A DNA stretch of 64,000 nucleotides from Thermoplasmata archaeon (GTDB lineage: Archaea > Thermoplasmatota > Thermoplasmata > Lutacidiplasmatales > UBA184): contig DAHUZP010000001.1 in assembly GCA_027306505.1 (NCBI GenBank), positions 120,932 to 184,931 on the forward strand, given 5' to 3'. Below, piece by piece: positions 15,906-64,000 of this stretch; positions within the stretch are counted from its first letter, which is position 1, and the number at the start of each line of letters is the position of its first letter. The position numbers and the translations under genes were made by a program. Under the pieces are notes generated by a model. That model worked only from the letters and a program-made list of their open reading frames with translations, did not search any database and had not been told where the DNA came from.

Positions 15906-16109
15906 AGGTCCAGGGGAAGGGCGGCTACCCGACCGGGAGGGCCCGAGGCAAGCCTCTTAGCGCCCCGTGCGTGGGGAAGGGCGCTGGGGGAGCCATCTTG
16001 CGGCTGAGAGGACAGATGTCATCTGTCGACCCCTCGAACCTGATCCGGGCAATGCCGGCGAAGGGAAGACGATGGCCAGCATAGGGAAGGCTCCCGCACG
16101 CGGCGGGAC

Positions 16110-19196: not shown

Positions 19197-20256
19197 GCTG
19201 GGGCGTCCCTCCCCTGTGCTGACGGTCCGCGGCCTGGAGCGGCGCTACCCGGGCTTCCGCTTGGGCCCGGTCGACCTCACCCTGGGGAAGGGCGAGACCC
19301 TCATGGTCCTGGGTCCCAACGGTTCGGGGAAGTCGACGCTGCTCCGGCTCCTAGCGGGACTGGAGCCCGCGGACCGCGGAGAGGTCCGGCTCGCGGGCAG
19401 GGACCTCTCCCAGGTCCCCCCCCACCGGCGCGGGATCGGGATGGTGTTCCAGGACCTTGCGCTCTTCCCGACGAAGAGCGTCTGGGACAATCTGACCTAC
19501 GGCCCTTTGGTCCAGGGATGGACCCCGCGGACGGTGGAGGCGCGAGGTGAGGAGCTGCTTCGACAGTTCCGCCTGGAGAAGCTCGCGGACCGCCGCCCTC
19601 CCGAGCTCTCCGGTGGCGAGCGGCAACGGGTCGCCCTCGCCCGAGCCCTCGCCCCGAGGCCCTCCTTGCTCCTCCTTGACGAACCGCTCTCTTCGGCGGA
19701 CCCCAGGAACGCGGGGGAGCTCCGTAGCGAGATCCAGACCTTCCTTCGGGAGGCGGACATTCCCGCGATCTACGTCACCCACGACCTCGACGAGGGATTC
19801 TTCCTGGGGCACCGCATCGCGCTCATCCAGGACGGTGCCTGGGTCCAGGAGGGCCCCTCGGACCAGGTCTTCGACCACCCCGCCAACGCCTTCGCGGCGT
19901 GGTTCCTGGGCTACAACGTCCTCCCCGACCCGGGAGCCGAAGGCGGACACGGTGTCATCGCGGTCCTGCCGAACCGGATCTCCCTCGCGCCGCCCACATC
20001 CCCCGGCGTCCTCCCCGGAGTGGTCGAGTCCTCTGGAAGGAGCGGCGCGCTCTTGCGTCTCTACGTTCGGCCCTCCACCCGCGCCGTTGGGGAGGGGGCG
20101 CCCCGCGTCGAAGTGGTCGTTCCGCGGGAGGCCCAGGCCGAGCTCCCTGGTGTGGGGGAGAAGGTTGGCCTGCTCCTGGAGGGAGCGATCCATCTCCCAG
20201 GGGACCTCCCCCCCGGCGGCTTCATGAAGGGCCCCTCCTCGGGGAAGGGCAGGTAG
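19180..20256 (+). CDS. ABC transporter ATP-binding protein with a C-terminal TOBE-like domain
   Basis: It carries Walker A GPNGSGKST, the signature LSGGERQRVALARAL, Walker B LLLLDEP and an H-loop. Confidence 0.85.
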   Translation: MPETAELGRPSPVLTVRGLERRYPGFRLGPVDLTLGKGETLMVLGPNGSGKSTLLRLLAGLEPADRGEVRLAGRDLSQVPPHRRGIGMVFQDLALFPTKSVWDNLTYGPLVQGWTPRTVEARGEELLRQFRLEKLADRRPPELSGGERQRVALARALAPRPSLLLLDEPLSSADPRNAGELRSEIQTFLREADIPAIYVTHDLDEGFFLGHRIALIQDGAWVQEGPSDQVFDHPANAFAAWFLGYNVLPDPGAEGGHGVIAVLPNRISLAPPTSPGVLPGVVESSGRSGALLRLYVRPSTRAVGEGAPRVEVVVPREAQAELPGVGEKVGLLLEGAIHLPGDLPPGGFMKGPSSGKGR

Positions 20257-25980: not shown

Positions 25981-28911
25981 ATGCCAAAACGGAAGTCCCC
26001 TCCCCGAACGCTCCCCGCTGCACCGGACGGTCAGGTGGAGGGCTCGTGGCCGGGGTCCTCCGACGGTAGGGGGGCCTCCTCCCGCTCCGCAACCTCGGCC
26101 CAGAGCGCCTCTGCCCCCGCGGAGGAGACCTCCTCGAGGCGCCGCGCCCAGATGACCGTCCCCACCGTGGTCGACATGCGGAAGGCGCGGGAGGAGGCGC
26201 TCTTCCAGCTTCGGCTCGGCCGCCAGTCCCTCGCCTTCGGGTTCCTGGTCGGTCTGCTCCTGGTCGTCGATGCCGCCATCGCGCTCTTCGTGGGCACTTC
26301 CTCGCTCTCCTCGGTAGGCACGGTCGGTGCCTTCCTCCAGTCCGTCATCAACAACCAGCTCGCGCTCGCCCTACCCCTCGCGGCGGGGCTCTTCCTCTCC
26401 ATCGCGGTCTTCCTGGAGAAGTACGACACCTACGGGTTCTGGCCGTTCGAGGACCACTTCGCGATCACGATCGCCTCCCTCGCCCTCTCCGTCGCCCTCG
26501 CGGTGATCTACGCCCTCCACCTCGTCAACCGCGGTCCGGACATCCTCAAGACCCTCTCCTGGACCGTCTACGTGCTGGTCTTGATCGCCATCTCCCTCGG
26601 GATGGTCTCCCTGGGCACGACCTGGAGAGGGTGGCCCTGGCGGAAGGTCGCGAGCCTGGTGTTCGCGGTGCTGCCTCCGGTCCTCGCGGTGCCGCTCCAG
26701 TACTCCCTTGCTTCGCTCAACAGCCTCGGGGCCCCCGGCGGTTATGGGGCGTTGAACCTCTCGCTGTCCATCAGCTTCGGCTTCGCAGCCTTCCTCTACA
26801 TCGCGAGCGGTGCTCAGCTGCACCTCATGGCGAGCGCGACGCGCGCGCAGGAGCGCGAGGTGGTCGCCGGTAGCCACGAGAAGCTCTTCGCCCTCGCCCA
26901 GGAGCTCAGCACCCGGAACGAGGCCGCCATCTTCCGGGAGGAGGCGCTCTCCCGCCGCGAGGCCGACGTGGAGGCCCAGGAAGGGACCCTCGTGGAGCGG
27001 GCCCGTTTCCTCGAGGACCGCCGCCAGGAGCTCGAGACCCTGGACCGGCACCTCCGCACGAAGGGGGACGAGGTCGGTGGGCGCGAGCAAGCCCTGCTAC
27101 CCCGTGCCGCCGAGGTCACCGCGGCCGAGGCCTCCCTGAAGGAGCGGAACGCCCAGGTCACGGCCCGGGAGCATGAGATGCAAGCCGGCTTCCAACGGCT
27201 GGGGGACCGGGAGAGGAACCTGCTCGAGCGCGAGCAAGCGACCCGTCAGAAGGAGCTCGAGCTCCAGAACCGGGTGGCCGAGGTCGCCCGCTCGGAGGCC
27301 CAGGCGCGCGCGGTGGAGCAGAGCGCCCAGCAGCGTCTCGCTGAAGCTCAGCAACGCTTTGCCGCGGCGACGGGCCGAGAGGCCGAGATCCGTGCCCGGG
27401 AGTCCAGCATGCAGCTCCCGCCCGATGCGAGGGCTCGTGTCCAGACGAAGGAGGCCGAGATCGCACGGCGCGAGGCCACGATCGAGTCCCAGCGGGCGGA
27501 GATCCAGGACCGGATCGGAGCGGCCTCCGTCAAGGAGCAGGCAGCGGAGCGTCGCCGCGTCGAGCTCCAGCAGGTCGCCTCGACCATCCTGGAGCGGGAG
27601 AAGAACCTCGCCTCCCGAGAGGCCGCCCTCACGGCGAAGGAGAAGCAGTACGAGATCGAGCTCGACCTCCTCAAGGGTGCGACGAAGCGCCACGAGGACG
27701 AGATCCGAAAGTACTTCGACGCGACCAAGAAGAGCACGCTGGTCGAGAGCCAGTCGAGCCTCATGATGAGCCAGCTCAAGGAAAAGGAGACGGGGGTCTC
27801 CGTCCGGGAGCAGAAGGTCCAGGAGCGGGAGCGCGAGATCCAGGGACGGAGGGAGGAGCTCGAGCGCCAGACCCAGGAGGTCACCGCTCAGCGGCGGTCC
27901 GCGGAGGCCCAGTTGGCGGACCTTCGCATGCGCAGCACCCGGCTGGAAGAGGCGGCGGCCCGCCTCGCCCCGAGCCGCAGCGAGGCCGACGCCACCCTCA
28001 CCCGGGCCCTGCAGGACCGGGAGAAGGCGATCGAGCTACGCGAACGCCAGCTGGCCGATCGGGAGCAGAAGGTCCGTTCGATGCAGTACGAGCGGGACCG
28101 CCAGGCGACCGCGGGAGCGGTCGCACAGGAAGAGGCGGGATCGCTCACGGGGGTCGGTCCGACCCCCTCGCTCCGGCGCCCCGGGAAGGTCTCGACCGGG
28201 ACCCCCCGCTTGGACGACCTGCTCCTGGGGGGCTTCCCCGAGAAGGGACATGTCGGGTTCGTGGGACCGGCCTTCGTGGGGAAGGAGGTCGCGATCTACG
28301 CCTTCCTCGCCGAAGGGCTTCGCAAGGGGGAGGGCGCGCTGGTCATCGCCGCGAGCCGGTCTCCCTCCGAGACCGCCCGCGAGATGGGCGTCGTGATCCC
28401 TTCGCTCATGGAGTACGAGGGCGCTGGGCGTCTCATCTGGATCGATGCCTCCAACCCGGCGGGCGTACCGGCAGGCGATGCCCGTAGCAAGGCCGGGACC
28501 ACCGTCAAGGGTCCGGGGGACCTCGTCGGCATCCTCCAGGCGGTGAGCCGCCACTCTGCCGAGCTTGAGAAGACGAGGGCCGGCTTCCGGGTGGCGTTCC
28601 TCTCCCTCTCCTCGTGCATCACCCAGACGGACGAGCGGGGTGGCGCAGCCTTCGTCCAGAACATCCTGGGCATCCTCCGCCCCAAGGGGAGCCTAGGGGC
28701 CTACAGCATCGATCGGGGCATGCACAGCGACCAGCAGGCCCAGGCGATCATCTCGCAGATGGACGGGGCCGTCGAGTTCCGCACGGAGCGGGGAAAGACC
28801 CAGCTCCAGGTCGTGGGGCTGGGAGAGGTCCAGGCACGCCAGTGGGTGGACTACCGGTTCACGCAGCGCGCGCTCTCGCTCGGGAGCTTCACGCTCGAGA
28901 GGATCCGTTAG
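25981..28911 (+). CDS. Membrane protein with about 8 N-terminal TM helices, a ~400-aa coiled coil and a C-terminal KaiC/RecA-like domain with a degenerate P-loop
   Basis: Hydrophobic helices lie at the N-terminus. A long heptad-like Glu/Arg/Ala/Gln segment follows (REEALSRREADVEAQEG...). The C-terminus reads GTPRLDDLLLGGFPEKGHVGFVGPAFVGKEVAIYAF, with GxxxxGKE instead of GKS/T. A better start may be the ATG near 26152. Confidence 0.6.
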   Translation: MPKRKSPPRTLPAAPDGQVEGSWPGSSDGRGASSRSATSAQSASAPAEETSSRRRAQMTVPTVVDMRKAREEALFQLRLGRQSLAFGFLVGLLLVVDAAIALFVGTSSLSSVGTVGAFLQSVINNQLALALPLAAGLFLSIAVFLEKYDTYGFWPFEDHFAITIASLALSVALAVIYALHLVNRGPDILKTLSWTVYVLVLIAISLGMVSLGTTWRGWPWRKVASLVFAVLPPVLAVPLQYSLASLNSLGAPGGYGALNLSLSISFGFAAFLYIASGAQLHLMASATRAQEREVVAGSHEKLFALAQELSTRNEAAIFREEALSRREADVEAQEGTLVERARFLEDRRQELETLDRHLRTKGDEVGGREQALLPRAAEVTAAEASLKERNAQVTAREHEMQAGFQRLGDRERNLLEREQATRQKELELQNRVAEVARSEAQARAVEQSAQQRLAEAQQRFAAATGREAEIRARESSMQLPPDARARVQTKEAEIARREATIESQRAEIQDRIGAASVKEQAAERRRVELQQVASTILEREKNLASREAALTAKEKQYEIELDLLKGATKRHEDEIRKYFDATKKSTLVESQSSLMMSQLKEKETGVSVREQKVQEREREIQGRREELERQTQEVTAQRRSAEAQLADLRMRSTRLEEAAARLAPSRSEADATLTRALQDREKAIELRERQLADREQKVRSMQYERDRQATAGAVAQEEAGSLTGVGPTPSLRRPGKVSTGTPRLDDLLLGGFPEKGHVGFVGPAFVGKEVAIYAFLAEGLRKGEGALVIAASRSPSETAREMGVVIPSLMEYEGAGRLIWIDASNPAGVPAGDARSKAGTTVKGPGDLVGILQAVSRHSAELEKTRAGFRVAFLSLSSCITQTDERGGAAFVQNILGILRPKGSLGAYSIDRGMHSDQQAQAIISQMDGAVEFRTERGKTQLQVVGLGEVQARQWVDYRFTQRALSLGSFTLERIR

Positions 28912-31938: not shown

Positions 31939-32394
31939 TCAGAGGTATTTCTTGAGCGACGGGTCCTTCTCTGCGAGCGTCTTGAAGGTCTCCGTAGCGA
32001 CCTTGCTGAGGAGCTTCTGGCCCTGGGGCGAGAGGGCACGGCCCCGCAGGCGCACCTGCTGGACCAGTCCCGCCTTCTCGAGCTGCTGGAGGATCTCGCG
32101 AGACACCGAGCGGCTTCCCTTCCGGGCATGGTAAGGGGCGCTGCCCCTGTCACGTCGGCCGCCGAACTCGGCGGAGAGGTTGCTAACGCCGCAGGGACCG
32201 CGGGTGTGGAGCTTTCGGAGCACGGCCGCGCTTCGGAGGTACCACCAGTCCGCCTGGACCGGGGCTTTCTCGGTGTGGACGCCGGTGCGTGCGAAAGCGG
32301 CCCAGGCCGGGGGCTTGATGGACGCGTGGTTGCGAAGCTCGGCCGCGAGGCGGGGCAGCAGGTAGCTGGGAGGCACTTCCTTCGGGTGGGTCAT
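31939..32394 (-). CDS. rps19e: 30S ribosomal protein S19e
   Basis: It reads IKPPAWAAFARTGVHTEKAPVQADWWYLRSAAVLRKL. The start is placed at the internal ATG (MTHPKE). Confidence 0.85.
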   Translation of the reverse strand: MTHPKEVPPSYLLPRLAAELRNHASIKPPAWAAFARTGVHTEKAPVQADWWYLRSAAVLRKLHTRGPCGVSNLSAEFGGRRDRGSAPYHARKGSRSVSREILQQLEKAGLVQQVRLRGRALSPQGQKLLSKVATETFKTLAEKDPSLKKYL

Positions 32395-32437: not shown

Positions 32438-32719
32438 TTAAGTTCGGCCTGGGCCTTCGCGGTCCCCGTCGTCCCCCGCGCTGGAGGGGGTAGGGGGCTC
32501 CTGGACGGGCCGCAGCGCGGGGTCCGTGCCCTTGGGCGAAAGCGCGCTGACGGAGGGAGGGGCTGCGGCCTTGGGAGGCCGCTTGGGAAGCCCCGCGAAC
32601 CCGCTCGAGGGGGCCCTCGAGACGCGCCGGGCGTAGCGGAAGAGCAGGAAGACCAACGCCAGCAGGGCCGCGACGATATCGAGGCCCAGGAACAAGGCGA
32701 GGATGAGCGAGGCATCCAT
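32438..32719 (-). CDS. Possible small single-pass membrane protein with a Pro-rich tail
   Basis: An N-terminal hydrophobic helix ILALFLGLDIVAALLALVFLLF is present. There is no homology evidence, so the call is weak. Confidence 0.25.
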   Translation of the reverse strand: MDASLILALFLGLDIVAALLALVFLLFRYARRVSRAPSSGFAGLPKRPPKAAAPPSVSALSPKGTDPALRPVQEPPTPSSAGDDGDREGPGRT

Positions 32720-32779: not shown

Positions 32780-33748
32780 CTATCGGGAGAGCTTCGAGAG
32801 CATCCGGCCGGCACGGAAGAGGTGGTGCAGGGCGTAGCGCCGCTTGAACACCGTCTCGTCCCGGTCGACCTCGAGGGAGATGAGCGTGAGGTCGTCCATC
32901 TTGAGGACCCCGCCTCCCTGGAGGGGGACCAGCATCTCGAAGAGACCGTCCGCGACCTCGCTGAAGCGCTCGCGGTCGAGGAGCACCCCGGGCCACTGGA
33001 TCAAGAACTTCGCAAGCGCGTCTGTCGCTCCCCACAGGTGCGTCCCGGTCTCGAGCCTCCCCTCCTGCAGGAGCGGGGTGGGGGTGGAGCCCTCCTGGGT
33101 GCTGACCAGAGGAGGGGTGGTGTCGAAGTCCGACGCCTTCTCTACGGGCCAGGAGAGGAGCTTCGCCTTCGAGTCCCCGGAGTTCCGCAACAGGCAGGAG
33201 TCGCCCACCGTGATCGCGCGCCAGGTACCCTCGATGGGGTTCGCCTCGATGCCGAGGAACGTCGCCCAGGCGCCCTGGTCCCTCTTGCGGACCGCGCGCG
33301 CGTTCGCGAGGTCGAGCAGCGGTTCGGTCTCCTTCCTCCACAGCTGGGAGAGCTCGGGGAGAGCGGCGAGGAAGCTGTCGGCGGAATCGGCGGGGAGCGA
33401 GCCCGCGACGAAGGCGTCCGTCAGGATCTGGGCCCACATGCCGGACCACGAGGACTCGGTCGCCCCGTCCGAGATCGCGACGCGGATGATCTCCTCCTTG
33501 CGGCGGAACGTCCCCGCTTCGAGCACCCGATGCTCGTCCGCCGAGGCGACCCGGACGTACTTGTCGAGCGGCGAGTGCGCGACCCGGTCGTCACACTCGG
33601 CGAGAGGCCCCTTCGAGATGACCATGCTCTCGAAGAAGGTGAAGAGAGGGGCGGATTTGCTCGGCATGCCGCAGATTTCCTCTGGGGAACGGGACCTCTG
33701 TAGCACCCGGTGGACCGAGCGCTGTTGGTCCACGGAGGACGATGCCAC
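32780..33748 (-). CDS. PP2C-family (PPM) Ser/Thr phosphatase-like protein
   Basis: PPM motifs are present: VAISDGATES (DG), ITVGDSCLL (GDS) and KMDDLTLISLEV (the DD metal-binding motif near the C-terminus). The motif after the first DG is degenerate. Confidence 0.6.
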   Translation of the reverse strand: MASSSVDQQRSVHRVLQRSRSPEEICGMPSKSAPLFTFFESMVISKGPLAECDDRVAHSPLDKYVRVASADEHRVLEAGTFRRKEEIIRVAISDGATESSWSGMWAQILTDAFVAGSLPADSADSFLAALPELSQLWRKETEPLLDLANARAVRKRDQGAWATFLGIEANPIEGTWRAITVGDSCLLRNSGDSKAKLLSWPVEKASDFDTTPPLVSTQEGSTPTPLLQEGRLETGTHLWGATDALAKFLIQWPGVLLDRERFSEVADGLFEMLVPLQGGGVLKMDDLTLISLEVDRDETVFKRRYALHHLFRAGRMLSKLSR

Positions 33749-33880
33749 CTACAAGAAGCCGTAGGTAGGCGCGAATCCTCCCGCGACCGGTTCCCCTCAA
33801 GGAGCGCCCCTCCGGTCGGCCTACGCGCCCTAGCGGGTGCCCCACTGTCCCATGCCGTTCCCATTCGGCCGAGGGCACCA

Positions 33881-33886
33881 TTTATA
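33881..33886 (+). promoter_or_regulatory. TATA-box-like element (TTTATA) about 34 nt upstream of the vWA gene start
   Basis: It is the only AT hexamer in the 170-nt divergent spacer between the PP2C and vWA genes. Confidence 0.3.
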
Positions 33887-33919
33887 GGGGGAAGATGTTC
33901 GGAAGCTCGAGGGATACCC

Positions 33920-34774
33920 TTGGTCGAACCCTACACCGAAGAAGTCAGCGTCACCCACAACCAGCCTGGTTGCATCATCTTCCTGATTGATCAGAGCGGT
34001 TCGATGAAGGCGGAGATCCGGGGCATGCCCGGGGTCCGCAAGTGCGACTTCCTCGCTGACCAGATCAACGGCATCCTCGACGACCTGCTCCTGCGCTGCA
34101 CGAAGAACAACAAGGTGGTCCCCTACTTCCACAGCCAGATCATCTCCTACGGGTTCCAGGGCGACCTCGTCGCCCCGATCGTGGGCAGCCAGCAGGACCC
34201 GCTCATCCTTCCGCTCGACCGGATGGCGGAGTGGACCGACCAGAACAACGGCTGGGCGGACGGGCGCCTCCAGGTGATCCGACCGGTCGCCGAGGGCCGT
34301 ACCCCCATGACCCAGGCCTTCGCCCTCCTCGAGGAGCCGGTGAAGGAGTGGGTGGCGACCAACCCCAACAGCTACCCGCCGATCATCCTCAACATCACGG
34401 ACGGCATCCCCGAACCCCGTACCCAGGAGAACTGGCAGGCGCTCGTGGACATCTGCACGCGCCTCAAGCGGGTGACCAACGCGAACGGCTCGATGGTCCT
34501 CATCTTCAGCCTGCACATCGGGGACTCCGACACCTTCCCTCCGGCGATCTTCTGCAACGAGCAGGAGGCGCCCCAGACCCCGGAGGCCCAGTTGCTCTTC
34601 CGCTGCGCGAGCCACCTGCCGCCATCGATGGCGGCCGAGGCCCAGCGCGTGGGGCTCCCGGTCTCCCCGGGCCTCCCTAAGTGCTACGGGTACAACATCG
34701 GTGGCAAGGAGCTCATCAAGATCCTCCAGGTCGGGACGCGGACGGGGCCCATGGTGGCCCCCCCCGTCGCCTGA
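33920..34774 (+). CDS. von Willebrand factor A (vWA) domain protein with a MIDAS motif, TerY-like
   Basis: It reads IIFLIDQSGSM (DxSxS), with downstream Thr and Asp residues (ILNITDGIPE) and a Rossmann-like alternation. The start is placed at the in-frame TTG at 33920, because the supplied ORF overlaps the PP2C gene. Confidence 0.65.
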   Translation: MVEPYTEEVSVTHNQPGCIIFLIDQSGSMKAEIRGMPGVRKCDFLADQINGILDDLLLRCTKNNKVVPYFHSQIISYGFQGDLVAPIVGSQQDPLILPLDRMAEWTDQNNGWADGRLQVIRPVAEGRTPMTQAFALLEEPVKEWVATNPNSYPPIILNITDGIPEPRTQENWQALVDICTRLKRVTNANGSMVLIFSLHIGDSDTFPPAIFCNEQEAPQTPEAQLLFRCASHLPPSMAAEAQRVGLPVSPGLPKCYGYNIGGKELIKILQVGTRTGPMVAPPVA

Positions 34775-34913
34775 GGCGGGCCGAGACCCCTCTTCTCCAC
34801 CCCTCTCCCCTGCCCACCGCCCTTCGACCGTCCCTATCGAGGAGCGAAGGAGCTCCCGAGGCCGAGGGGCTCGCGCTATCCGTGGGCGAACAGGCCCGGC
34901 GCCCTGGGCGCGC

Positions 34914-37900
34914 CTAGGGTCGGTTGGGCAGGGGAGGGGAAGCTCCTTCGTCCGCCCCTGAGACGACCCTTGGGGGAACGGGAGCCCGCTCCTTGGGCGA
35001 TGAGGACCGGGCCAACCGGGGGGCGGAGAGCTTTTCGCCGAACTTCGCGCCGAGCGGCGTCAGGGAGATCCGCTCCCCTCCGCTCAGCCGGTCCCGGTCC
35101 CTCATGACCAGTCCCGCGTCGGTGAGAGAGGCGAGCACGATGTAGAGACGACCGTCGGGGATCCTCGTGTCGCGCTGAAGCTCCCCGGCGGGAAGAGGGC
35201 CCACCCCGAGCGCGCCTAGGACCAGGTGGTAGTCGGTAATCTCCTTCGACCCCAGCTTGCGGAGCAGCGCGGAGAAGACCTCGTCCCCCTCCGTAGCAGC
35301 TGGGACGGTGGGGGCGGCGGCCTCCGCCGCAGCGTCCATCGGTGACCAGGCACTGGTCGCCGACATGGGTGTCGCGGTGGCCCCCTCGGCAAAGGCCTCC
35401 GAAGCCTCGGGAGCGGCCTCGGGGGGCATCGGCGTGCTCGCGGGCAGCACCTGGGCCTCGGGGAACAGCGGGGATGGCGGCGGGGCGCCTACGAAGGCGG
35501 CCGACCCTGCAGGGTCCGGTCCCTCCATCGGAGGCCCTGGGACGACCTCCTGCCCTGGGAAGAGCTCCTCCGACGGCGCCTGCTGCCGTGCACGTCGAGA
35601 GCGCGCCGCGAAGAGGACGAGGGCCGCGACCACCAGCGCAACGAGGACGAGCAGGAGGGCCAGCCCGACGAAGAAGGGCAGGCCCAGCAGCGTCGAGCCG
35701 GGGGAAGGTGCCCCTCCGCTTCCGCCGCCCCCCCCACCACCACCGCCTGTCCCTCCGCCGGGGCCACCACCGACAAGGGCCGGAGCGACCACGATCGCCA
35801 GGGAACTCGTGCCGGCGGTCCGTCCGGCGGCATCGGTGAACCAGGCGCGGTAGGTGTAGGTCCCGGGGTGCAGGAAGGTCGGAGTGGTCCAGCGAAGGGC
35901 GGTCTGGGTGGTGTTGGTACCGTTCTCGGACCAGACCACGCCGTAGGGCGAGGTGCCTCCCCAGGCGGAGGCGTTGAGCACCACCGAAAGGCCGACACGG
36001 GACGAGGTCGTGTTCGCCGTGGCGAAGGCACGGAGCTGGACGATCCACGGGAACCCAACCACCCAAAGCTCGTGGTGGGCCGATACGTGCTCCCCCAGCG
36101 TGTCCGTCTCTTCGAGCGTGAAGGTGTAGTTCGCCTCTCCCGAGGGCGTGAAGGACAGCGAGGAGAGGGAGGGGTTCGTCGTGAGGTTCGTGCTCGAGTT
36201 GAGGAGCCAGAAGTAGCTCACCGGCCCGTATCCGCCCTTCACCGACGCGGAGATCGAGACCGGGACCGAGGGCAGGGTCCCGTTCGCCGAGAAGGTGAAG
36301 TCCGGGCTCAACGGGGCGACCACCTGCAGGGTCACCTGGGCGACCGCCGAGCTCCCCCGACTGTCGTTGGCCCAGGCCGTCGCGTTGTACCAGCCCGGTG
36401 AGGTGTACCTGTGGACGGGAGTGGTGCCCGCCCCCGCCTGCCCGTCGCCGAACCTCCAGGAGATCAGGACGGGGGCCGTGCCGCCGGTGGTGACGGAGGA
36501 GAACTGGAAGATGAGCAAATCGGTGCCCCGCGTGGGGCTCGCCGAGACCTTCAGGGTCGGGAGCGAGTTCACGACCAGCGAGACCGGCCCGGCGAAGGCC
36601 CGGGAGCCGAAGGTGTCGTTCAGCTGGAGCCGGATGGAGTAGGTCCCGGGGGCGGACGGACGGCAGGGCAGGCTGCTCTGGTTCGCGCTCGCGCAGCCGG
36701 GGGGGAGCCCCTGCCACCAGAAGGTGTAGATGCCCGAGCCCCCGGAGGCGTTCGCCTGCAAGAGCGTCGACGATCCCACGTCCACCGTGGAAGGGCTCGC
36801 TCCGAGCCCCGAGAGCACGGGGGGAAGCCCCACCAGCACGGTCTCGTTGACGAGGGCGGAGGCGCCGAGCGTGTCGTTCGCATAGAGGCGGACGATGTAG
36901 CTTCCGATGGTCGTGAAGGTGTGGGAGACGTTGCCTCCTGAGACGCTAGGACTGCCGTCCCCGAACCGCCAGGTCGAACTGACCGTGCCCGTCCCGGGGT
37001 GCGCGAAGCTCGAGAAGTACACCGTGAGCGGTGCCGGTCCGCCCAGCGGGTGGGCGGTGACGTTCGCGGTCGGCCAAGGGTCGACCAGGATGAAGAGGGT
37101 CGCGCTCGCCGTCACCGCCCCGTCGGTGACCGTGACGGTAGGCGTGTAGGAGCCGGCCGCGTTGGGAGCGCAGGTGAAGATGGGCGCTCCCGTGTTCGGG
37201 CACCCCGGGGGCAGACCCGACCAGGTGAACGAGGTGAAGATCCCCGAGCCGCCCGAAGCGACCGCGCTGAACGACGCAATCTGGCTCGCATCGATGATGA
37301 GCGGAGAGACGCTCGCCGTCACGGTGAGGGAGGCCGGGAGGCCGTAGCTCCACATGTCCCCCAGGGGCACCGTGTTCCAGCCCCCGAAGATGAGGACGTA
37401 GCCGTCCGCCTCATCATAGGCGACGTTCGGCCCGTCGCGAGGCGGTGGTGCGACCGAGCCGGTGACGTTGGTCCACGTTCCGGCCTTGTAGGCCCAGGTG
37501 TCGTTGCCCCACTGCGAGCATGCCGACCCCGTGACGAAGGCCAGGCATCCGCCGAAGAGGTAGACGAACCCGTCGCCGCGGTCGTACACCATGCCGGGGA
37601 AGGAGGCCGCGGGGGGGTCCCCCGAGGGCTGCGTGCGGTTGGTCCAGGTCCCCGCGTGGTAGGACCAGATGTTGTCCGAGAGCCAGCACTGGAGCGGGTT
37701 GCTCGTGGTCTGGACGCAACCGTCCACCATGAGCACGTAACCGTCGGAGGCATCGTAGGCCAGGCCCTCCTGGGACCTCGCGGGGGGGCTCGAGGGGGAG
37801 GAGGTCTGCGGCGTCCACTGCCCGCCGACGAACGACCAGGTGTCGCCCAGGTTCCCGTTGGAGTTGCCTCCGCCGAAGAGCAGGGCGTAGCCGTCGGAGG

Positions 37901-39716
37901 CGTCCCAGGCCATCTCCATACAGCAACGCGCGGAGGGAGAAACCGTCGGAGCGAGGGCGGTCCAGACGCCGGCCCGGTAGCTCCAGGTCGCGCCGAGGGG
38001 TCCGTTGGACTGCGTCCCTCCACCGAACATGACCACGTACCCATCGTAGAAGTCGTAGGTCATCGCGGCGCAGCACAGGCCGCCCGGCGGCGAGGAGGAG
38101 CTCACCAGGTGCCAGCTCAAGTTCTGGTAGGTCCAAGTGGCGGCGAGGTGGGTGTTCCCCGTCGTTCCGCCACCGTAGAGGAGCACGTAGCCGTCCGCAT
38201 AGTCGTAGGTGATCGCGGCGTTGACCTCCTCGGTGGGGGTCCAGGAGGTGGGCAGCAGTCGCTGGTACACCCCTGGCACCACCTGGGTGCCGAAGAACTG
38301 CCACGTGTCGCCGTACAGGGTCGAGCCGAGGGTGCCCCCGAAGAGGACCACCAGCCCGTCGGTCGGGTCGAAGGTCATCGCGGCCTGCGACCGGAGGAGG
38401 GGAGGGGTTCCCACGAAGGCGGTGATGTTGGTCCAGTACCCCCGCTTGAACGCCCACGTGTCCGAGAGCCCGGACGCGGTCGCGGGCTGGCCTCCGAAGA
38501 GCAGGACCTCACCCTCCACCGCGTCGTAGGTCATCGAGAGCCCTTGCCTGGGCGATGGGGCGTGGGGGGAGTGCCAGGTCAGATCGGTCCAGGTGTCGTT
38601 GCTGAAGGTCCACGTCTGGTTGTCCGAGATACAGGGGCCCTGGCGCGGGCCCATGCAACCTCCAAAGAGCAGGGCGTACCCGTCGGCCGAGTCGAAGGAC
38701 ATGTCGAGGCCCATGTGCGGCGGAGGGGAGACGCCGCCCCGAAGGCTTCCCGTGATGTTCGTCCAGACCCCGCCCTGGTACGTCCAGGTGTCGTTGTAGT
38801 AGCTGGTCGAGCCACCGCCGAAGAGCAGCACTTTCCCGATACCGGCATCGAAGGTCATCGCCGCATCGAAGCGAGGGCCCGGGTTGCTGGTGGGGCTGAG
38901 CTGGGTCCAGATCCCTCCGGCGTAGCGCCAGGTCTCGGAGCTGAAGGTGCCTGAGTTCGCGCCACCGAAGAGCAGAACGTACCCATCCGCCGCGTCGTAG
39001 GCCATCGAACTGCAGCAGAAGATTGGGGGATGGGTCCCCGTGACCTGGGTCCAGGTGTTCGAACGATAGTACCAGGTCTGCTGGACGAGGCCCGCGCCCG
39101 TGCTCCCGCCCCAGAGCAGCACGTAGCCGTCATGGTTGTCATAGACCATGTCGGCGCCTGAGGTCGCGGGGACCGCCCCCGAGGGCGAAGTGGACTGCCA
39201 GATCGGAGCGGTGCCCGAAGGCCGATAGTCGGCGAGCTCGGTCGACCGGGAGGAGCAGTGGAGGCTCCCCGTTCCCGACCCGCAGGTCCACGGCACCCCT
39301 CCCGCGGGCCCGCCACCGGATTCGAGCGAAGCCGTCGCCGAGCGCAGGGCCTGCTCCGGACCGAGAGGGGGGGGTCCGTTCTCGGGGGGCTCGGGAGCCG
39401 CCTGGGGTAACGACACCGATGGGGAGAGCTTCGGCCCAGAGGCCATGTGCGGGGCCCCTACGAGCAACAGGAGGCAGAGGACGCCCACGACGACCGCGAG
39501 AGCGGAGAGCGGGCTTGAACGGGGGCCATGAGGGAGCGGTTTCGGCGCGGCTCCACCTCCTTCCTGACTCCCCGTGCCCGGGGGGGACCGGCTGACCGCT
39601 CGAGGGCCGGACCACGGGCGGGGGGACTCACCCGCCTCACTTCGGAGGAGCGCTGCTCCGTTCTCGCGGGGCTTGTTCCTCAGGTAGTGACGCGTGGACG
39701 GACCGACGATCTCCAT
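34914..39716 (-). CDS. Giant type-I membrane protein: a signal anchor, about 14 Kelch-type beta-propeller blades, four PKD domains, one TM helix, a Pro/Ala-rich cytoplasmic linker and a C-terminal TrmB-like winged helix
   Basis: The blade motif DGYVLLFGG...W.Y/F...W is repeated. PKD motifs of the form WxFGDGxxxxGxxxxHxYxxxGxY are present. The TM helix is LLGLPFFVGLALLLVLVALVVAALVLF. The C-terminus reads ITDYHLVLGALGVGPLPAGELQRDTRIPDGRLYIVLASLTDAGLV. Confidence 0.7.
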   Translation of the reverse strand: MEIVGPSTRHYLRNKPRENGAALLRSEAGESPRPWSGPRAVSRSPPGTGSQEGGGAAPKPLPHGPRSSPLSALAVVVGVLCLLLLVGAPHMASGPKLSPSVSLPQAAPEPPENGPPPLGPEQALRSATASLESGGGPAGGVPWTCGSGTGSLHCSSRSTELADYRPSGTAPIWQSTSPSGAVPATSGADMVYDNHDGYVLLWGGSTGAGLVQQTWYYRSNTWTQVTGTHPPIFCCSSMAYDAADGYVLLFGGANSGTFSSETWRYAGGIWTQLSPTSNPGPRFDAAMTFDAGIGKVLLFGGGSTSYYNDTWTYQGGVWTNITGSLRGGVSPPPHMGLDMSFDSADGYALLFGGCMGPRQGPCISDNQTWTFSNDTWTDLTWHSPHAPSPRQGLSMTYDAVEGEVLLFGGQPATASGLSDTWAFKRGYWTNITAFVGTPPLLRSQAAMTFDPTDGLVVLFGGTLGSTLYGDTWQFFGTQVVPGVYQRLLPTSWTPTEEVNAAITYDYADGYVLLYGGGTTGNTHLAATWTYQNLSWHLVSSSSPPGGLCCAAMTYDFYDGYVVMFGGGTQSNGPLGATWSYRAGVWTALAPTVSPSARCCMEMAWDASDGYALLFGGGNSNGNLGDTWSFVGGQWTPQTSSPSSPPARSQEGLAYDASDGYVLMVDGCVQTTSNPLQCWLSDNIWSYHAGTWTNRTQPSGDPPAASFPGMVYDRGDGFVYLFGGCLAFVTGSACSQWGNDTWAYKAGTWTNVTGSVAPPPRDGPNVAYDEADGYVLIFGGWNTVPLGDMWSYGLPASLTVTASVSPLIIDASQIASFSAVASGGSGIFTSFTWSGLPPGCPNTGAPIFTCAPNAAGSYTPTVTVTDGAVTASATLFILVDPWPTANVTAHPLGGPAPLTVYFSSFAHPGTGTVSSTWRFGDGSPSVSGGNVSHTFTTIGSYIVRLYANDTLGASALVNETVLVGLPPVLSGLGASPSTVDVGSSTLLQANASGGSGIYTFWWQGLPPGCASANQSSLPCRPSAPGTYSIRLQLNDTFGSRAFAGPVSLVVNSLPTLKVSASPTRGTDLLIFQFSSVTTGGTAPVLISWRFGDGQAGAGTTPVHRYTSPGWYNATAWANDSRGSSAVAQVTLQVVAPLSPDFTFSANGTLPSVPVSISASVKGGYGPVSYFWLLNSSTNLTTNPSLSSLSFTPSGEANYTFTLEETDTLGEHVSAHHELWVVGFPWIVQLRAFATANTTSSRVGLSVVLNASAWGGTSPYGVVWSENGTNTTQTALRWTTPTFLHPGTYTYRAWFTDAAGRTAGTSSLAIVVAPALVGGGPGGGTGGGGGGGGGSGGAPSPGSTLLGLPFFVGLALLLVLVALVVAALVLFAARSRRARQQAPSEELFPGQEVVPGPPMEGPDPAGSAAFVGAPPPSPLFPEAQVLPASTPMPPEAAPEASEAFAEGATATPMSATSAWSPMDAAAEAAAPTVPAATEGDEVFSALLRKLGSKEITDYHLVLGALGVGPLPAGELQRDTRIPDGRLYIVLASLTDAGLVMRDRDRLSGGERISLTPLGAKFGEKLSAPRLARSSSPKERAPVPPRVVSGADEGASPPLPNRP

Positions 39717-39824
39717 GCCGCTGGTTCCCCTCGAGCGGCGGAACCTCGTGACAGGGGGATGAAAGGTCGTGCAAGGGGGACCACACCTCGATGCACCGAT
39801 TGCTAGGACGTGTCACCCACGTCG

Positions 39825-41195
39825 CTAGCCGGAAGGCTGGTGGGGTCCGGGCGCGGGGCCCCCAGGAGGAGCGGGGTAGCCCCCGTACGCGGCGAACTGT
39901 CCCCGGTGCGGGAAGTCGACCCGGGGCGGGGGCTCGCGGTCGATGGCCGCCCTCGCATCCGGGAGCAGGAGCTGGCTCAAGGGCAGGCAGGTGGCCAGAT
40001 GGTCGTTGCACCCCTTCACGAGGATACCGGCGAGCCGCCGCACGCCGGCATGCGGGTGGCCGAGCAGCCGGACGAGCTCGCTCTTCCTGTTGTAGAGGGA
40101 AGCCCGCTCGAAGTCACGGGACGAGAAGGCGGGCTTGGTCCGGCCCACCATGCGCCAGAACTGCGGGTCGACCCGGTTCAAGGTGAGGAGCAGCGTCAGG
40201 ACGAGGAAGGCGAAGGAGTCCCCTATCGCTCCGCGGTCGGGCTTCTTGGGCCATTTCGCGCGTCCACTGATCACGTCGGGGTGCTGGAACTCGGGCTGCC
40301 CGACGATGGGGGAAGGGGGCAGGTCGACCCCACGGATCCACAGGCTGTCGTAGTCGACGAGGTGGATGTCGTCCTGGCTGTCGATGAACAGGTTGTCGAA
40401 GCTGATGTCGCCGTGGGAGATCCCCAGTTCCTGGAGATGGTCCGCGAGGGAGAGCACGTTCTGGGTGAGGCGGCGGTACCTCCAGTCGCGCTCGGCCGGC
40501 TCCAGGGTGTCGAGCATCCGCATGTGCTCGTCGAGCGAGGTCCCGGAGGCCCGCTCCATCACGAGGGCGGGGAACCACTCGGCCCGCTTCTGGCCGTTCG
40601 CCCCGGTGAACATGATGTGGGCCCCTTGGTGATAGTACCAGGTCCCGACGAAGACCCCCTTGAGCGAGGAGGAGGTCTGCCAGACCCAGCGCGTGATCGC
40701 AGAGTAACGGGCGTCCGCTGCCGGTAGCCACTGGGTGTGGTAGAGCCGAAGGATCATCGGCGTGGGGTTGTTGTGGCCGAAGAGCAACTGGAAGACGATG
40801 GCGTATCGCCCGCAGGAGCGCCAGGGTGGGCGCGAGGGGTGCGGGAAGGTCATGGGCCGGAAACGGACGTCCAACGGGATTGCCCCCCGCAGGGGGGGAG
40901 CGGCCGTGTGGGGGAAATGGGTCAGCGCCTGGACCACCTCGGAGGGGGAGGGCATCTCCCGACCTGGCACCTGGACCGGTCCCTTCCGACGGAAGAGCCC
41001 CCCTCCGAGCCCCCGGCGCTTCTTCGGCGGAGCGGCAGGTCGGGGGCCCGCGGGCCTCACGGCCGCCGGCGGGGGCACCGGTGGCGGACCGGCGGCCGGT
41101 GGCCCGGCCGGAGGGTGCCCGTAGGGTCGTGCGGGCGGACGTTGCGGGGGTCCCCCCGCAGCGGGCTGCCCGGTCGCCTGTTGCCCCGCGGACAT
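39825..41195 (-). CDS. Atypical protein-kinase-like protein with a Pro-rich N-terminus
   Basis: A catalytic-loop-like ISHGDISFDNLFI (HGD...N) is present, and LVDYDSL sits at the DFG position. The first ~70 aa are a Pro/Ala/Gly-rich low-complexity region. Confidence 0.55.
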   Translation of the reverse strand: MSAGQQATGQPAAGGPPQRPPARPYGHPPAGPPAAGPPPVPPPAAVRPAGPRPAAPPKKRRGLGGGLFRRKGPVQVPGREMPSPSEVVQALTHFPHTAAPPLRGAIPLDVRFRPMTFPHPSRPPWRSCGRYAIVFQLLFGHNNPTPMILRLYHTQWLPAADARYSAITRWVWQTSSSLKGVFVGTWYYHQGAHIMFTGANGQKRAEWFPALVMERASGTSLDEHMRMLDTLEPAERDWRYRRLTQNVLSLADHLQELGISHGDISFDNLFIDSQDDIHLVDYDSLWIRGVDLPPSPIVGQPEFQHPDVISGRAKWPKKPDRGAIGDSFAFLVLTLLLTLNRVDPQFWRMVGRTKPAFSSRDFERASLYNRKSELVRLLGHPHAGVRRLAGILVKGCNDHLATCLPLSQLLLPDARAAIDREPPPRVDFPHRGQFAAYGGYPAPPGGPAPGPHQPSG

Positions 41196-41321
41196 GCTTC
41201 TGGTCCCCTGACCCCCCTGAGGCCCTCTCGATAGGAAATCGAACAGGTCTTTGAAGCCTGGGGACGGACGTGCGGCCGTTCCCCCTCAGGGTTCATCCAC
41301 CCCACCCGCCTCCTGGCCCTC

Positions 41322-41963
41322 GTGCCGGCAGGGGTGGTGGTCGCCGCGGGGGCCTCCACGCGCACGGGGGCCCGACCGAAGGCGCTCCTTCCCCACCCGG
41401 AGGGAGGAACCGCGCTGGGCCGGGTCGTGCGGACCCTGGAGGCCGCCCGGTTCTCCCCGATCGTCGTGGTCCTGGGGGCGCACGCCGATCTCCTCCGTCC
41501 TGAGGTCGAGGTGACCTCGGCCCGGATGGTCCTGCATACGGGCTGGGCGCGAGGACGCACCGGCTCCGTGAAGCAAGGCCTCCGGCAGGTTCTCGACCCC
41601 GGGGCCACGGTCCTCCTCTGGCCGGTGGACCACCCCTTCGCCTCGATAGCTACGCTCAGGGCCCTTGCGGCAGCGGCCCCCGGGGGAGAAGGCCCCCCCC
41701 TCCGCTGCTGGGTCGTGCCCGTCCATGAGGGGCGGAGGGGCCACCCGGTCCTCCTGGGAAGGGGAGCGGCGCAGGAGGTCCTCCATCTGGGCGACGACGA
41801 ACCCCTTTTCCGCTACCCCCGCTCCCATCCGCAAGACGTGGTCGAGGTACCGGTGGACGACCCGGGGGTGTTGGAGAACGTGGACACGCTCGAGGCGTTC
41901 GAACGGGCCGCGTACCGACGTCGTAGAGAACTCCCTCGAGACCCGCCTGCGGGAGGTGGCTGA
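41322..41963 (+). CDS. mocA: Molybdenum cofactor cytidylyl/guanylyltransferase (MocA/MobA family)
   Basis: It reads VVAAGASTRTGARPKALL and sits upstream of xdhC and the Mo-enzyme subunit genes. Confidence 0.7.
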   Translation: MPAGVVVAAGASTRTGARPKALLPHPEGGTALGRVVRTLEAARFSPIVVVLGAHADLLRPEVEVTSARMVLHTGWARGRTGSVKQGLRQVLDPGATVLLWPVDHPFASIATLRALAAAAPGGEGPPLRCWVVPVHEGRRGHPVLLGRGAAQEVLHLGDDEPLFRYPRSHPQDVVEVPVDDPGVLENVDTLEAFERAAYRRRRELPRDPPAGGG

Positions 41964-63928: not shown

Positions 63929-64000
63929 AGCTCCCGGGAGGTTGTGGGACGAATGGTGGTAGGGCGAGGCCGACAGGACGGACGCGCGGGCTCCGGCATC

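What the first reader, a model, noticed from the sequence alone, without database searches (positions are those of the whole stretch)
32780..41195. TerY-P-triad-like signalling locus (PP2C + vWA + kinase-like) in an archaeon, interrupted by a giant sensor-like gene
Three genes sit within 8.4 kb: a PPM/PP2C-like phosphatase (32780-33748, minus), a MIDAS-containing vWA protein (33920-34774, plus) and a kinase-like protein (39825-41195, minus). This composition matches the TerY-P triad (vWA-TerY + PP2C + Ser/Thr kinase) described from comparative genomics of bacterial tellurite-resistance-associated loci. Here the kinase-like gene lies directly upstream of, and on the same strand as, a 1600-aa Kelch/PKD transmembrane protein, and the vWA gene is convergent with that giant gene. 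The kinase-like protein is atypical, carrying HGD..N and DYD in place of HRD and DFG. This may be a divergent, uncharacterised archaeal version in which a membrane sensor is wired into the phospho-triad.
Basis: partly seen in the sequence, partly recalled or inferred. Interest (0 to 1): 0.8.

Follow-up and report, generated by a model that had tools for sequence, protein, structure and literature searches.

The report
Archaeal TerY-P kinase/phosphatase/vWA triad
A Thermoplasmata archaeon carries a divergent copy of the bacterial "TerY-P" three-gene phosphorylation switch (metal-binding vWA protein, PP2C phosphatase, Ser/Thr kinase), inserted between housekeeping genes and kept under strong selection, whereas the giant membrane protein inside it is a later add-on found only in the closest relative.

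Summary
The three ORFs match the three consecutive PADLOC models of the TerY-P system: TerY 3e-33, PP2C 1e-16, STK_OB 1e-16 (kinase part only). The phosphatase model folds as a PPM. The vWA protein has a complete MIDAS motif. The kinase keeps the catalytic Asp, Asn and Mg-binding Asp. HGD and DYD are not archaeal oddities. They are hallmarks of the whole TerY-P kinase clade, as is Arg in place of the VAIK Lys (28 of 36 sequences).

The host is a Thermoplasmata archaeon. Six related lineages carry the triad at the same chromosomal site. A sister lineage has an empty site (NTP_transf_3 directly next to S19e), so the cassette was inserted once and then inherited.

It differs from bacterial TerY-P in three ways:
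- The genes are divergent/convergent, not one operon.
- The kinase has no C-terminal OB, zinc-ribbon or membrane module.
- TerY is almost frozen (98-100% identity, dN/dS 0.00-0.03).

The 1600-aa Kelch/PKD gene occurs only in the window and its closest relative. Other lineages have a GNAT, a small membrane protein or nothing in that slot. However, many bacterial TerY-P kinases are fused to TM + beta-propeller modules, so a split-receptor reading is not excluded.

Verdict: a new variant of a known kind, of moderate interest.

The parts
32780..33667 (-). PPM/PP2C-type Ser/Thr phosphatase, 295 aa (TerY-P PP2C component)
   Evidence: PADLOC PP2C PDLC02222, E 1.1e-16, profile positions 23-240 of 242. 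Pfam PP2C_2 is only 0.0034. AF2 model has pLDDT 82 and pTM 0.85. Its top 50 listed Foldseek PDB hits are all PPM-fold proteins (RsbX, PstP, STP, PppA, tPphA, SpoIIE), probability 1.0, E about 2e-9. The Asp residues at the positions of the PPM metal-binding motifs are invariant in 29 family members: D44, D67(GA), G155-D156, D216, D258-D259.
33881..33886 (+). Archaeal TATA box (TTTATA) 34 nt upstream of the TerY start codon
   Evidence: Invariant in five relatives, in an intergenic region that is otherwise poorly conserved.
33920..34774 (+). TerY-like vWA protein with complete MIDAS motif, 284 aa
   Evidence: PADLOC TerY PDLC02224, E 3e-33, profile positions 4-273 of 277. D24-x-S26-x-S28, T128 and D161 are invariant in alignment A1. 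It is 98-100% identical in six relatives, with dN/dS 0.000-0.031.
34914..39716 (-). 1600-aa membrane protein: 66-aa P/G/S-rich N-terminus, hydrophobic anchor, Kelch propellers, PKD repeats, TM helix, about 230-aa cytoplasmic tail with a weak TrmB-like wHTH. Lineage-specific occupant of the slot between the STK and TerY genes, not a core part.
   Evidence: Pfam Kelch 6.5e-42, PKD_4 2e-25, TrmB 0.0073 (5.7e-4 for the tail alone). Hydrophobic segments located. Orthologue only in L089: 81.5% identity, dN/dS 0.34. Absent from L001, L003-L006 and L085.
39825..41195 (-). TerY-P-clade Ser/Thr kinase, 456 aa: Pro-rich/basic N-terminal extension plus kinase domain, with only 21 aa after the domain (no OB, ZnR or TM module)
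   Evidence: PADLOC STK_OB PDLC02223, E 1.4e-16, profile positions 42-236 of 562 only. Pfam Pkinase 4.6e-6, below cutoff. Family profile hits ULK3 (6e-10), PAK1 and WNK in the PDB. Key residues in 456-aa numbering are H261-G-D263, N268, D281-Y-D283 and the beta3 residue R150. C-terminal census. N-terminal extension conserved.
32438..32719 (-). 93-aa ORF (TM helix plus tail) downstream of the PP2C gene. Possible remnant of a PKD membrane-protein gene that occupies this slot in L003/L005.
   Evidence: Also called in L089 and highly similar there. Its TM-proximal tail matches the equivalent part of the L003 697-aa PKD protein: 12/25 identical, E 4e-6 for a single comparison.
31939..32394 (-). Ribosomal protein S19e gene: one border of the insertion site
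   Evidence: Synteny with L001, L003 and L089. In L090/L091 this gene lies directly beside NTP_transf_3 with no triad between them.
41286..41963 (+). NTP_transf_3 (MobA-like) gene heading the XdhC/CoxSML-like cluster: the other border of the insertion site

Best explanation
**What it is.** The locus is a divergent archaeal member of the TerY-P phosphorylation triad. Its three parts are a Ser/Thr kinase, a PPM phosphatase and a MIDAS-containing vWA protein (TerY).

**How it got there.** A three-gene cassette was inserted between the NTP_transf_3/Mo-hydroxylase cluster and the S19e ribosomal-protein cluster. This happened in the ancestor of one Thermoplasmata clade. The nearest homologues are bacterial, at 35% identity or less. 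The cassette has been inherited vertically since and kept functional.

**How it most likely works (inferred).**
1. The kinase phosphorylates TerY and/or a TerY-bound client.
2. The PPM phosphatase resets that state.
3. TerY uses its metal-loaded MIDAS site to hold an acidic or phosphorylated ligand.
4. The triad therefore behaves as a reversible, metal-dependent phospho-switch.

**How it differs from bacterial versions.**
- The kinase has lost every C-terminal targeting module (OB, zinc ribbon, TM/ectodomain) and gained a Pro-rich/basic N-terminus.
- The three genes lie on alternating strands (PP2C <- | -> TerY | <- STK) rather than in one operon. An invariant TATA box was identified only upstream of TerY.
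- TerY is under near-absolute purifying selection. That points to a fixed, conserved cellular partner.

**The giant gene.** The 1600-aa Kelch/PKD gene is a later insertion into a variable slot of the island. It is shared only with the closest relative.

**Shown versus inferred.** Shown: family membership of the three proteins, intact catalytic and MIDAS residues, the insertion site, vertical inheritance, selection strengths and slot variability. Inferred: who phosphorylates whom, the output, and whether the role is antiviral.
For: - **Family matches.** PADLOC TerY 3e-33, PP2C 1.1e-16, STK_OB 1.4e-16.
- **Phosphatase.** PPM fold of the phosphatase model. Invariant Asp residues at the PPM metal-binding motif positions.
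- **vWA.** Complete MIDAS motif.
- **Kinase.** Catalytic residues H/D/N/D-Y-D are 35-36/36 across the clade, and the clade profile hits protein kinases in the PDB.
- **Bacterial context.** The canonical TerY->PP2C->STK operon is present in about 60 bacterial loci found with TerY alone.
- **Archaeal synteny.** Six related archaeal lineages carry the triad at the same site.
- **Empty site.** L090/L091 have S19e 64% identical and the same flanks on both sides, but no triad.
- **Outgroups.** None of 15 more distant S19e loci has the triad.
- **Selection.** dN/dS is 0.000-0.031 for TerY, 0.09-0.19 for STK and 0.07-0.41 for PP2C. The neighbouring S19e gene gives 0.07-0.13.
- **Comparison with bacteria.** Bacterial pairs at similar kinase divergence have TerY only about 85% identical.
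- **Giant gene.** Restricted to the window and L089, with other occupants elsewhere.
- **Published function.** TerY-P is described as a stand-alone anti-phage system and as a hypothesised metal-sensing phospho-switch in PMC11090510 and PMC7699616, both citing Gao 2020 and Anantharaman 2012.
Against: - No biochemical evidence exists for any step.
- The beta3 Lys is Arg, which is classically a kinase-dead substitution. It is, however, the majority state of the clade.
- No invariant alphaC Glu was seen.
- The AF2 model of the kinase was poor (pLDDT 47).
- Pfam hits for all three proteins are below the gathering cut-offs.
- Sequence profiles of the PP2C and TerY families find no solved structure.
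- The non-operonic layout means co-regulation is not guaranteed.
- Relatives were mostly found through the triad proteins themselves, so presence within the clade could be over-estimated.
Confidence: 0.8

Rival explanations
1. Antiviral defence. The triad does in this archaeon what TerY-P does in bacteria. It senses infection and, through phosphorylation, blocks virus replication or triggers dormancy.
For: All three proteins match the PADLOC TerY-P models. TerY-P protects against T7-like phages (PMC7699616 and PMC11090510). The cassette is an insertion next to slots that hold variable genes, which is island-like behaviour.
Against: - No other defence genes were found nearby.
- The position is fixed and the cassette is present in every relative that covers the site.
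- TerY has dN/dS of 0.00-0.03, lower than the ribosomal protein gene next door. Bacterial TerY at comparable divergence is much less conserved.
- The kinase lacks the OB or ZnR module thought to contact nucleic acid.
Confidence: 0.35
2. Domesticated housekeeping switch. After acquisition the triad was recruited to regulate a conserved cellular process. TerY acts as an invariant adaptor to a conserved host partner.
For: TerY is almost frozen at the protein level while dS is 0.1-0.58, so this is not recent transfer. Inheritance is vertical at one site across lineages with dS up to about 1. GC3 has the host's composition. TerY has its own invariant TATA box.
Against: No partner or process has been identified. 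Adjacency to ribosomal-protein and eIF6 genes is explained by the insertion site and is not evidence of function. The clade is narrow, so only about six or seven lineages could be compared.
Confidence: 0.35
3. Split receptor kinase. In the window/L089 lineage the giant Kelch/PKD protein is the detached 'linker-TM-ectodomain' half of a receptor-type TerY-P kinase, and it feeds surface signals to the bare kinase.
For: - 44 of 56 bacterial kinases of the clade have a TM-like segment after the kinase domain, and about 22 have at least 100 aa beyond it.
- Five of six long ones scanned carry WD40, PD40 or PQQ-like beta-propellers, two of them also PA14.
- The giant gene starts 108 nt after the kinase gene's stop codon on the same strand. 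Its product begins with a 66-aa P/G/S-rich stretch, then a TM segment, then propellers.
- In L085 the gene after the kinase gene also encodes a Pro-rich N-terminus, a TM segment and an ectodomain.
- PKD membrane proteins recur in other slots of the island in L003/L005 and L088.
Against: - The giant gene is absent from four or more relatives, which keep the triad under the same selection.
- The slot occupants are unrelated to one another: a GNAT, a 283-aa protein, or nothing.
- The giant protein evolves about four times faster than the kinase (dN/dS 0.34).
- A distant homologue of its tail has no triad nearby.
- The PKD proteins share only generic PKD repeats (about 30% identity).
- Two in-frame stop codons separate the two ORFs.
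Confidence: 0.2
4. Chance neighbours. Three unrelated weak-similarity ORFs happen to lie within 8 kb.
For: The Pfam matches are all below the curated cut-offs.
Against: PADLOC E-values run from 1e-16 to 3e-33. The fold match is clear. The three families co-occur in dozens of bacterial and six archaeal loci.
Confidence: 0.01

Closest known systems
TerY-P anti-phage system (Gao et al. 2020; PADLOC models TerY / PP2C / STK_OB)
   Same: The same three protein families are present. The MIDAS motif and the Asp residues at the PPM metal-binding positions are intact. The kinase has the clade hallmarks: HxD without Arg, D-Y-D, and mostly Arg at the beta3 position.
   Different: - The host is an archaeon.
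- Gene order is PP2C<- ->TerY <-STK, not the co-directional operon TerY->PP2C->STK.
- The kinase matches only positions 42-236 of the 562-position model and has no OB domain.
- It has an extra Pro-rich/basic N-terminus.
- TerY is hyper-conserved.
- Identity to any bacterial member is only 24-35%.
TerY-P triad embedded in Type II/III-A CoCoNuT (McrBC-like) systems, with the kinase fused to a zinc ribbon (PMC11090510)
   Same: It is the same vWA + PP2C + STK module. That paper discusses it as a possibly stand-alone cassette that augments the CoCoNuT systems; here it stands alone.
   Different: No CnuB/C/H/E or McrBC-like genes are among the annotated neighbours. There is no CxxC zinc ribbon on the kinase.
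Bacterial membrane-anchored / receptor-type TerY-P kinases found here (for example L019, L071, L025, L043; L049 carries WD40 but had no TM-like segment in my scan)
   Same: The kinase domain belongs to the same clade and sits next to TerY and PP2C genes. A propeller-containing extracytoplasmic module is associated with it.
   Different: There the TM segment and propeller are fused to the kinase. Here the kinase is bare and the propeller protein is a separate, lineage-specific gene.
ArnA/ArnB (FHA + vWA) with the ArnC/ArnD kinases and a phosphatase regulating the archaellum in Sulfolobus (recalled from memory, not tested here)
   Same: It is an archaeal regulatory module that combines a vWA protein with Ser/Thr kinases and a phosphatase.
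   Different: There is no FHA/ZnF partner here. No sequence relationship was tested. The proteins in this locus are TerY-P-type and bacterial-like.

Membership tests
TerY-P triad | TerY-like vWA protein with a MIDAS metal site | tested here: met
   PADLOC TerY E 3e-33 over positions 4-273 of 277. DxSxS, T and D are invariant. Homologues P0005 and P0006 carry Pfam VWA/VWA_2.
TerY-P triad | PP2C/PPM phosphatase encoded next to TerY | tested here: met
   PADLOC PP2C E 1.1e-16. Foldseek hits are PPM-fold proteins only. Asp residues at the PPM metal-binding positions are conserved. The gene lies 252 bp from the TerY gene, divergently oriented.
TerY-P triad | Ser/Thr kinase of the TerY-P clade in the same neighbourhood | tested here: met
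   PADLOC STK_OB E 1.4e-16 on the kinase part. Clade motifs shared. The kinase gene is adjacent to the TerY gene in L003-L006 and one gene away in the window.
TerY-P triad (Gao 2020 type) | OB-fold fused to the C-terminus of the kinase | tested here: not met
   Only 21 residues follow the kinase domain. The model is matched at positions 42-236 of 562.
TerY-P triad (CoCoNuT type) | Zinc ribbon on the kinase and linkage to CnuH/CnuE/McrBC-like genes | tested here: not met
   No CxxC motif after the kinase domain. The neighbours are ribosomal-protein and Mo-hydroxylase genes.
TerY-P triad | Co-directional operon TerY->PP2C->STK | tested here: not met
   Most bacterial loci have this order. All Thermoplasmata loci have PP2C<- ->TerY <-STK.
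TerY-P triad | Protection against phage, or a tellurite-resistance phenotype | not testable with these tools
   This needs an experiment. The literature basis is PMC7699616 and PMC11090510.
Active eukaryotic-type protein kinase | Catalytic HxD Asp, catalytic-loop Asn and Mg-binding Asp of the DFG motif | tested here: met
   H261-G-D263, N268 and D281 align to the HRD, N and DFG motifs of BRSK2/ULK3. These residues are 36/36 in the clade.
Active eukaryotic-type protein kinase | Beta3 (VAIK) Lys paired with an alphaC Glu | tested here: not met
   The position aligned to the ULK3 VAIK Lys is Arg here and in 28 of 36 clade members, and Lys in 8. No invariant alphaC Glu was seen in A3.
PPM/PP2C phosphatase | PPM fold with conserved Asp residues at the metal-binding motif positions | tested here: met
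   Model pLDDT 82. Top hits are RsbX, PstP, STP and PppA with probability 1.0. D44, D67, D156, D216, D258 and D259 are invariant. A sequence-only profile search of the PDB found nothing.

The most novel reading that the evidence does not exclude
A bacterial TerY-P cassette was captured by a Thermoplasmata lineage and turned into a core cellular phospho-switch. In this switch the almost invariant TerY protein is a hub for a conserved host partner. The receptor half of the ancestral membrane kinase has been split off into exchangeable, separately encoded surface proteins. Examples are the giant Kelch/PKD protein in the window, a 283-aa protein in L085, and PKD proteins in other slots. The result would be a modular 'plug-in sensor' receptor-kinase system in archaea.
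Probability: 0.15. Interest if true: 0.65.

Novelty: new variant of a known kind. Interest (0 to 1): 0.4.

Why it matters
TerY-P is a validated anti-phage system, but I found no published mechanism for it in the papers searched. This archaeal lineage offers a stripped-down version. It has a bare kinase, a phosphatase and a vWA protein whose sequence is essentially frozen. It also has a datable insertion, with an empty site in a sister lineage.

This shows that the three proteins can persist and stay under selection without the OB, zinc-ribbon or membrane module. It points to TerY as the most constrained component. It also documents that many bacterial TerY-P kinases are membrane or propeller receptor kinases, an architecture not mentioned in the papers I could read.

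The locus gives one more case of a bacterial signalling or defence cassette being fixed in an archaeal chromosome. It does not by itself reveal the mechanism.

Tried and rejected
- **PP2C profile against the PDB.** A sequence-profile search with the PP2C family (A2) found no phosphatase. The fold had to be shown by structure prediction instead.
- **TerY profile against the PDB.** The TerY profile (A1) gave only marginal vWA (MIC2) hits.
- **Kinase structure.** AF2 with a 4-sequence alignment gave pLDDT 47 and was not used for a fold search.
- **Giant protein tail.** Its C-terminal tail has no PDB match by sequence. The wHTH call rests only on a sub-threshold Pfam TrmB hit.
- **Source contig.** Looking up the 100%-identical PP2C protein P0014 to name the source contig failed.
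- **Literature.** Anantharaman et al. 2012 (PMC4104200) is not held. Searches found no mechanistic work on TerY-P and no report of it in archaea.
- **Insertion scars.** Aligning the intergenic DNA around the giant gene with relatives that lack it showed no recognisable scars or repeats.
- **Defence island.** I looked for one around the triad. The only hits were generic ABC-ATPase similarities for the MacB-like transporter ATPase.
- **Recent transfer as the cause of TerY conservation.** Rejected, because dS is 0.45-0.58 to the more distant relatives.
- **Read-through fusion of kinase and giant ORFs.** The two ORFs are in the same frame, but TAG and TGA stops lie between them in both the window and L089.
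Full report
**1. What is in the sequence**

Pfam alone is unconvincing. PP2C_2 scores E 0.0034, VWA_2 0.099 and Pkinase 4.6e-6, all below the gathering cut-offs. NCBIfam adds nothing specific.

PADLOC settles the identity. Three consecutive models hit the three ORFs:
- PDLC02222 'PP2C': E 1.1e-16, profile positions 23-240 of 242.
- PDLC02223 'STK_OB': E 1.4e-16, but only positions 42-236 of 562.
- PDLC02224 'TerY': E 3e-33, positions 4-273 of 277.

These are the components of the TerY-P system. Published descriptions call it a TerY-like vWA protein, a PP2C-like phosphatase and a Ser/Thr kinase. It was proposed as a metal-sensing phospho-switch, and with an OB-fused kinase it was shown to work as a stand-alone anti-phage system (PMC11090510 and PMC7699616).

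**2. The three proteins**

*Phosphatase.* An AF2 model built on 11 sequences has pLDDT 82 and pTM 0.85. Its 50 best listed PDB matches are all PPM-fold proteins, including RsbX, PstP, S. agalactiae STP, PppA, tPphA and SpoIIE. Probability is 1.0 and E is about 2e-9. In a 29-sequence family alignment the Asp residues at the positions of the PPM metal-binding motifs are invariant: D44, D67-G-A, G155-D156, D216 and D258-D259. The true start is probably 33667, giving 295 aa, because every database orthologue has that length.

*vWA protein.* The MIDAS residues D24-x-S26-x-S28, T128 and D161 are invariant.

*Kinase.*
- Alignment to BRSK2 and ULK3 puts HGD on HRD, N on the catalytic-loop Asn, and DYD on DFG.
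- A 36-sequence profile of the clade hits ULK3 (6e-10), PAK1, WNK and other protein kinases in the PDB.
- Across those 36 sequences H, D and N are 36/36. The residue between H and D is G, N, C or A and never R. D-Y-D is 35-36/36.
- The residue aligned to the VAIK Lys is Arg in 28 and Lys in 8.
- So the 'atypical' motifs are the signature of the whole TerY-P kinase clade. The one real departure from a canonical active kinase (beta3 Arg, no invariant alphaC Glu) is also shared by the clade.
The Pro-rich N-terminus and a GLGGGLFRRK..VPGRE motif are conserved as protein in four relatives.
- The AF2 model of the kinase was too poor to use.

**3. Organism and relatives**

Near-identical TerY genes lie on contigs titled 'Thermoplasmata archaeon'. 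The neighbours include the archaeal ribosomal-protein genes S19e, L39e, L31e and S17e, together with eIF6.

Six related lineages were recovered: L001, L003/L004/L006, L005, L085, L088 and L089. All are syntenic with the window, and all carry the triad as PP2C<- ->TerY <-STK. The triad sits between the S19e cluster and an NTP_transf_3 / XdhC / CoxSML-like cluster.

A scan of GTDB species genomes with a TerY alignment gave 544 relatives. Among the best 80, only two Thermoplasmata species (99% identity) and one Bathyarchaeota locus are archaeal. The rest are bacteria at 35% identity or less. In those bacteria the order is almost always TerY->PP2C->STK on one strand.

**4. Origin**

To avoid ascertainment bias through the triad itself, I searched JGI metagenomes with S19e. 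None of the 15 more distant loci (S19e 35-64% identical) has any of the three genes.

Two of them, L090 and L091, have S19e 64% identical and 68-69% G+C. They retain the complete flanking synteny on both sides. There NTP_transf_3 lies about 190-640 bp from S19e. That is an empty site. The triad was therefore inserted there in the ancestor of the window's clade. Its G+C and GC3 now match the host.

**5. Selection**

Against relatives with dS of 0.45-1.0, dN/dS values are as follows:

| Gene | dN/dS |
|---|---|
| TerY | 0.013-0.031 |
| STK | 0.09-0.19 |
| PP2C | 0.13-0.41 |
| S19e (neighbour) | 0.09-0.13 |

Against the closest relative L089, TerY is 100% identical with dS 0.11.

In bacterial TerY-P pairs whose kinases are 75-95% identical, TerY averages only 85%. 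In the archaeal set TerY is 98.5-100% at kinase identities of 81-90%. All three genes are thus maintained, and TerY is constrained far beyond what is seen in bacteria. I cannot explain this. It fits a fixed cellular partner better than an arms-race gene.

**6. The giant gene and the variable slots**

The 1600-aa protein has these parts, in order:
- a 66-aa P/G/S-rich N-terminus;
- a hydrophobic anchor;
- Kelch propellers;
- PKD repeats;
- a TM helix;
- a tail of about 230 aa with a weak TrmB-like wHTH.

Its only close homologue among 1.84 billion representative proteins is the L089 orthologue, in the same slot. That orthologue is 81.5% identical with dN/dS 0.34.

In other lineages the slot after the kinase gene holds different things:
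- a GNAT acetyltransferase in L001;
- a 283-aa protein with a Pro-rich N-terminus, a TM segment and an ectodomain in L085;
- nothing in L003-L006.

Other slots also vary:
- A 697-765-aa PKD membrane protein follows the PP2C gene in L003/L005.
- A 1041-aa PKD protein sits between the PP2C and TerY genes in L088.
- In the window, a 93-aa TM ORF after the PP2C gene resembles the TM-proximal tail of the L003 PKD protein.

A distant homologue of the giant protein's tail is not near a triad. The giant gene is therefore not a conserved fourth component.

**7. Why the sensor idea is not dead**

I took a census of the region after the kinase domain in 56 non-Thermoplasmata kinases of the clade:
- 44 have a TM-like segment;
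- 5 have a zinc-ribbon-like CxxC cluster;
- 7 have neither;
- about 22 have at least 100 residues beyond the TM segment.

Five of six long ones scanned carry WD40, PD40 or PQQ-like beta-propellers, two of them also PA14. OB-like sequence is visible in L048 and L037.

The Thermoplasmata kinases have only 14-22 residues after the domain. A separately encoded 'linker-TM-propeller' protein that starts 108 nt after a bare kinase looks like the detached half of such a receptor kinase. I give this 0.2, because the partner is not conserved.

**8. Verdict**

This is a genuine TerY-P triad in an archaeon. The kinase motifs were over-read as archaeal peculiarities. The giant gene was over-read as part of the system.

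It is a new variant of a known kind. It has an archaeal host, a non-operonic layout, a kinase without a C-terminal module, hyper-conserved TerY and a resolved insertion site. Whether it defends against viruses or has been domesticated cannot be decided from sequence. I rate the two about equally.

Noticed in passing
window 33920-34774; L001, L003, L005, L085, L089: The TerY-like vWA protein is 98-100% identical across lineages whose ribosomal protein S19e is only 81-97% identical. Its dN/dS is 0.000-0.031. Bacterial TerY at comparable kinase divergence is about 85% identical. No explanation found.
   Followed up: partly
L090 9365-10001; L091 9488-9677: A sister lineage keeps both flanking gene clusters but has NTP_transf_3 directly beside S19e. 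This is an empty site that dates the insertion of the triad.
   Followed up: yes
L019, L071, L025, L049, L043 (kinase genes downstream of the TerY/PP2C genes): Many bacterial TerY-P kinases are membrane proteins, and the long ones carry C-terminal WD40, PD40 or PQQ-like beta-propellers and PA14. This receptor-kinase architecture is not mentioned in the TerY-P descriptions I could read, which mention only OB or zinc ribbon.
   Followed up: partly
window 39717-39827 (- strand): The giant gene's ATG is in the same reading frame as the kinase gene. The two are separated by TAG, three codons, TGA and then 32 sense codons. The same spacing is seen in L089. An imperfect palindrome (GCTAGCGACGTG..CACGTCCTAGC) overlaps the kinase gene's stop codon.
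   Followed up: partly
window 32438-32719 (-): A 93-aa ORF (TM helix plus tail) lies between the PP2C and S19e genes and is also present in L089. Its juxtamembrane tail resembles that of the 697-aa PKD protein occupying the same slot in L003. It is possibly a gene remnant or a small membrane protein.
   Followed up: partly
window 34914-35330 (-); L105 10564-10977: The cytoplasmic tail of the giant surface protein ends in a weak TrmB/MarR-like winged-helix segment, which is 86% conserved in L089. Another archaeal locus (L105) shows a wHTH-like C-terminus on a neighbouring gene fragment. Membrane-anchored wHTH tails may be a recurring feature.
   Followed up: no
window 15977-16083 (+): A TPP riboswitch (Rfam RF00059, 63 bits) lies at the start of an ABC-transporter operon (solute-binding protein, permease, ATPase at 16044-20256) in an archaeal genome.
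   Followed up: no
L031, L032, L038, L040, L041, L045, L061, L064, L066, L068, L076, L078, L081, L082, L084: In Pseudanabaena and related cyanobacteria the TerY homologue (about 31% identical) has no PP2C or STK gene within the fetched flanks. These are TerY-like vWA genes in a different, unexamined context.
   Followed up: no
window 25981-28911 (+): A 976-aa protein with a C-terminal KaiC-like ATPase domain and a DUF7090 hit. It is conserved in L003 and L089 beyond the ribosomal-protein cluster. Function unknown.
   Followed up: no
window 62001-64000: G+C rises to 0.75, with strongly negative GC skew (-0.17), compared with about 0.69 elsewhere.
   Followed up: no
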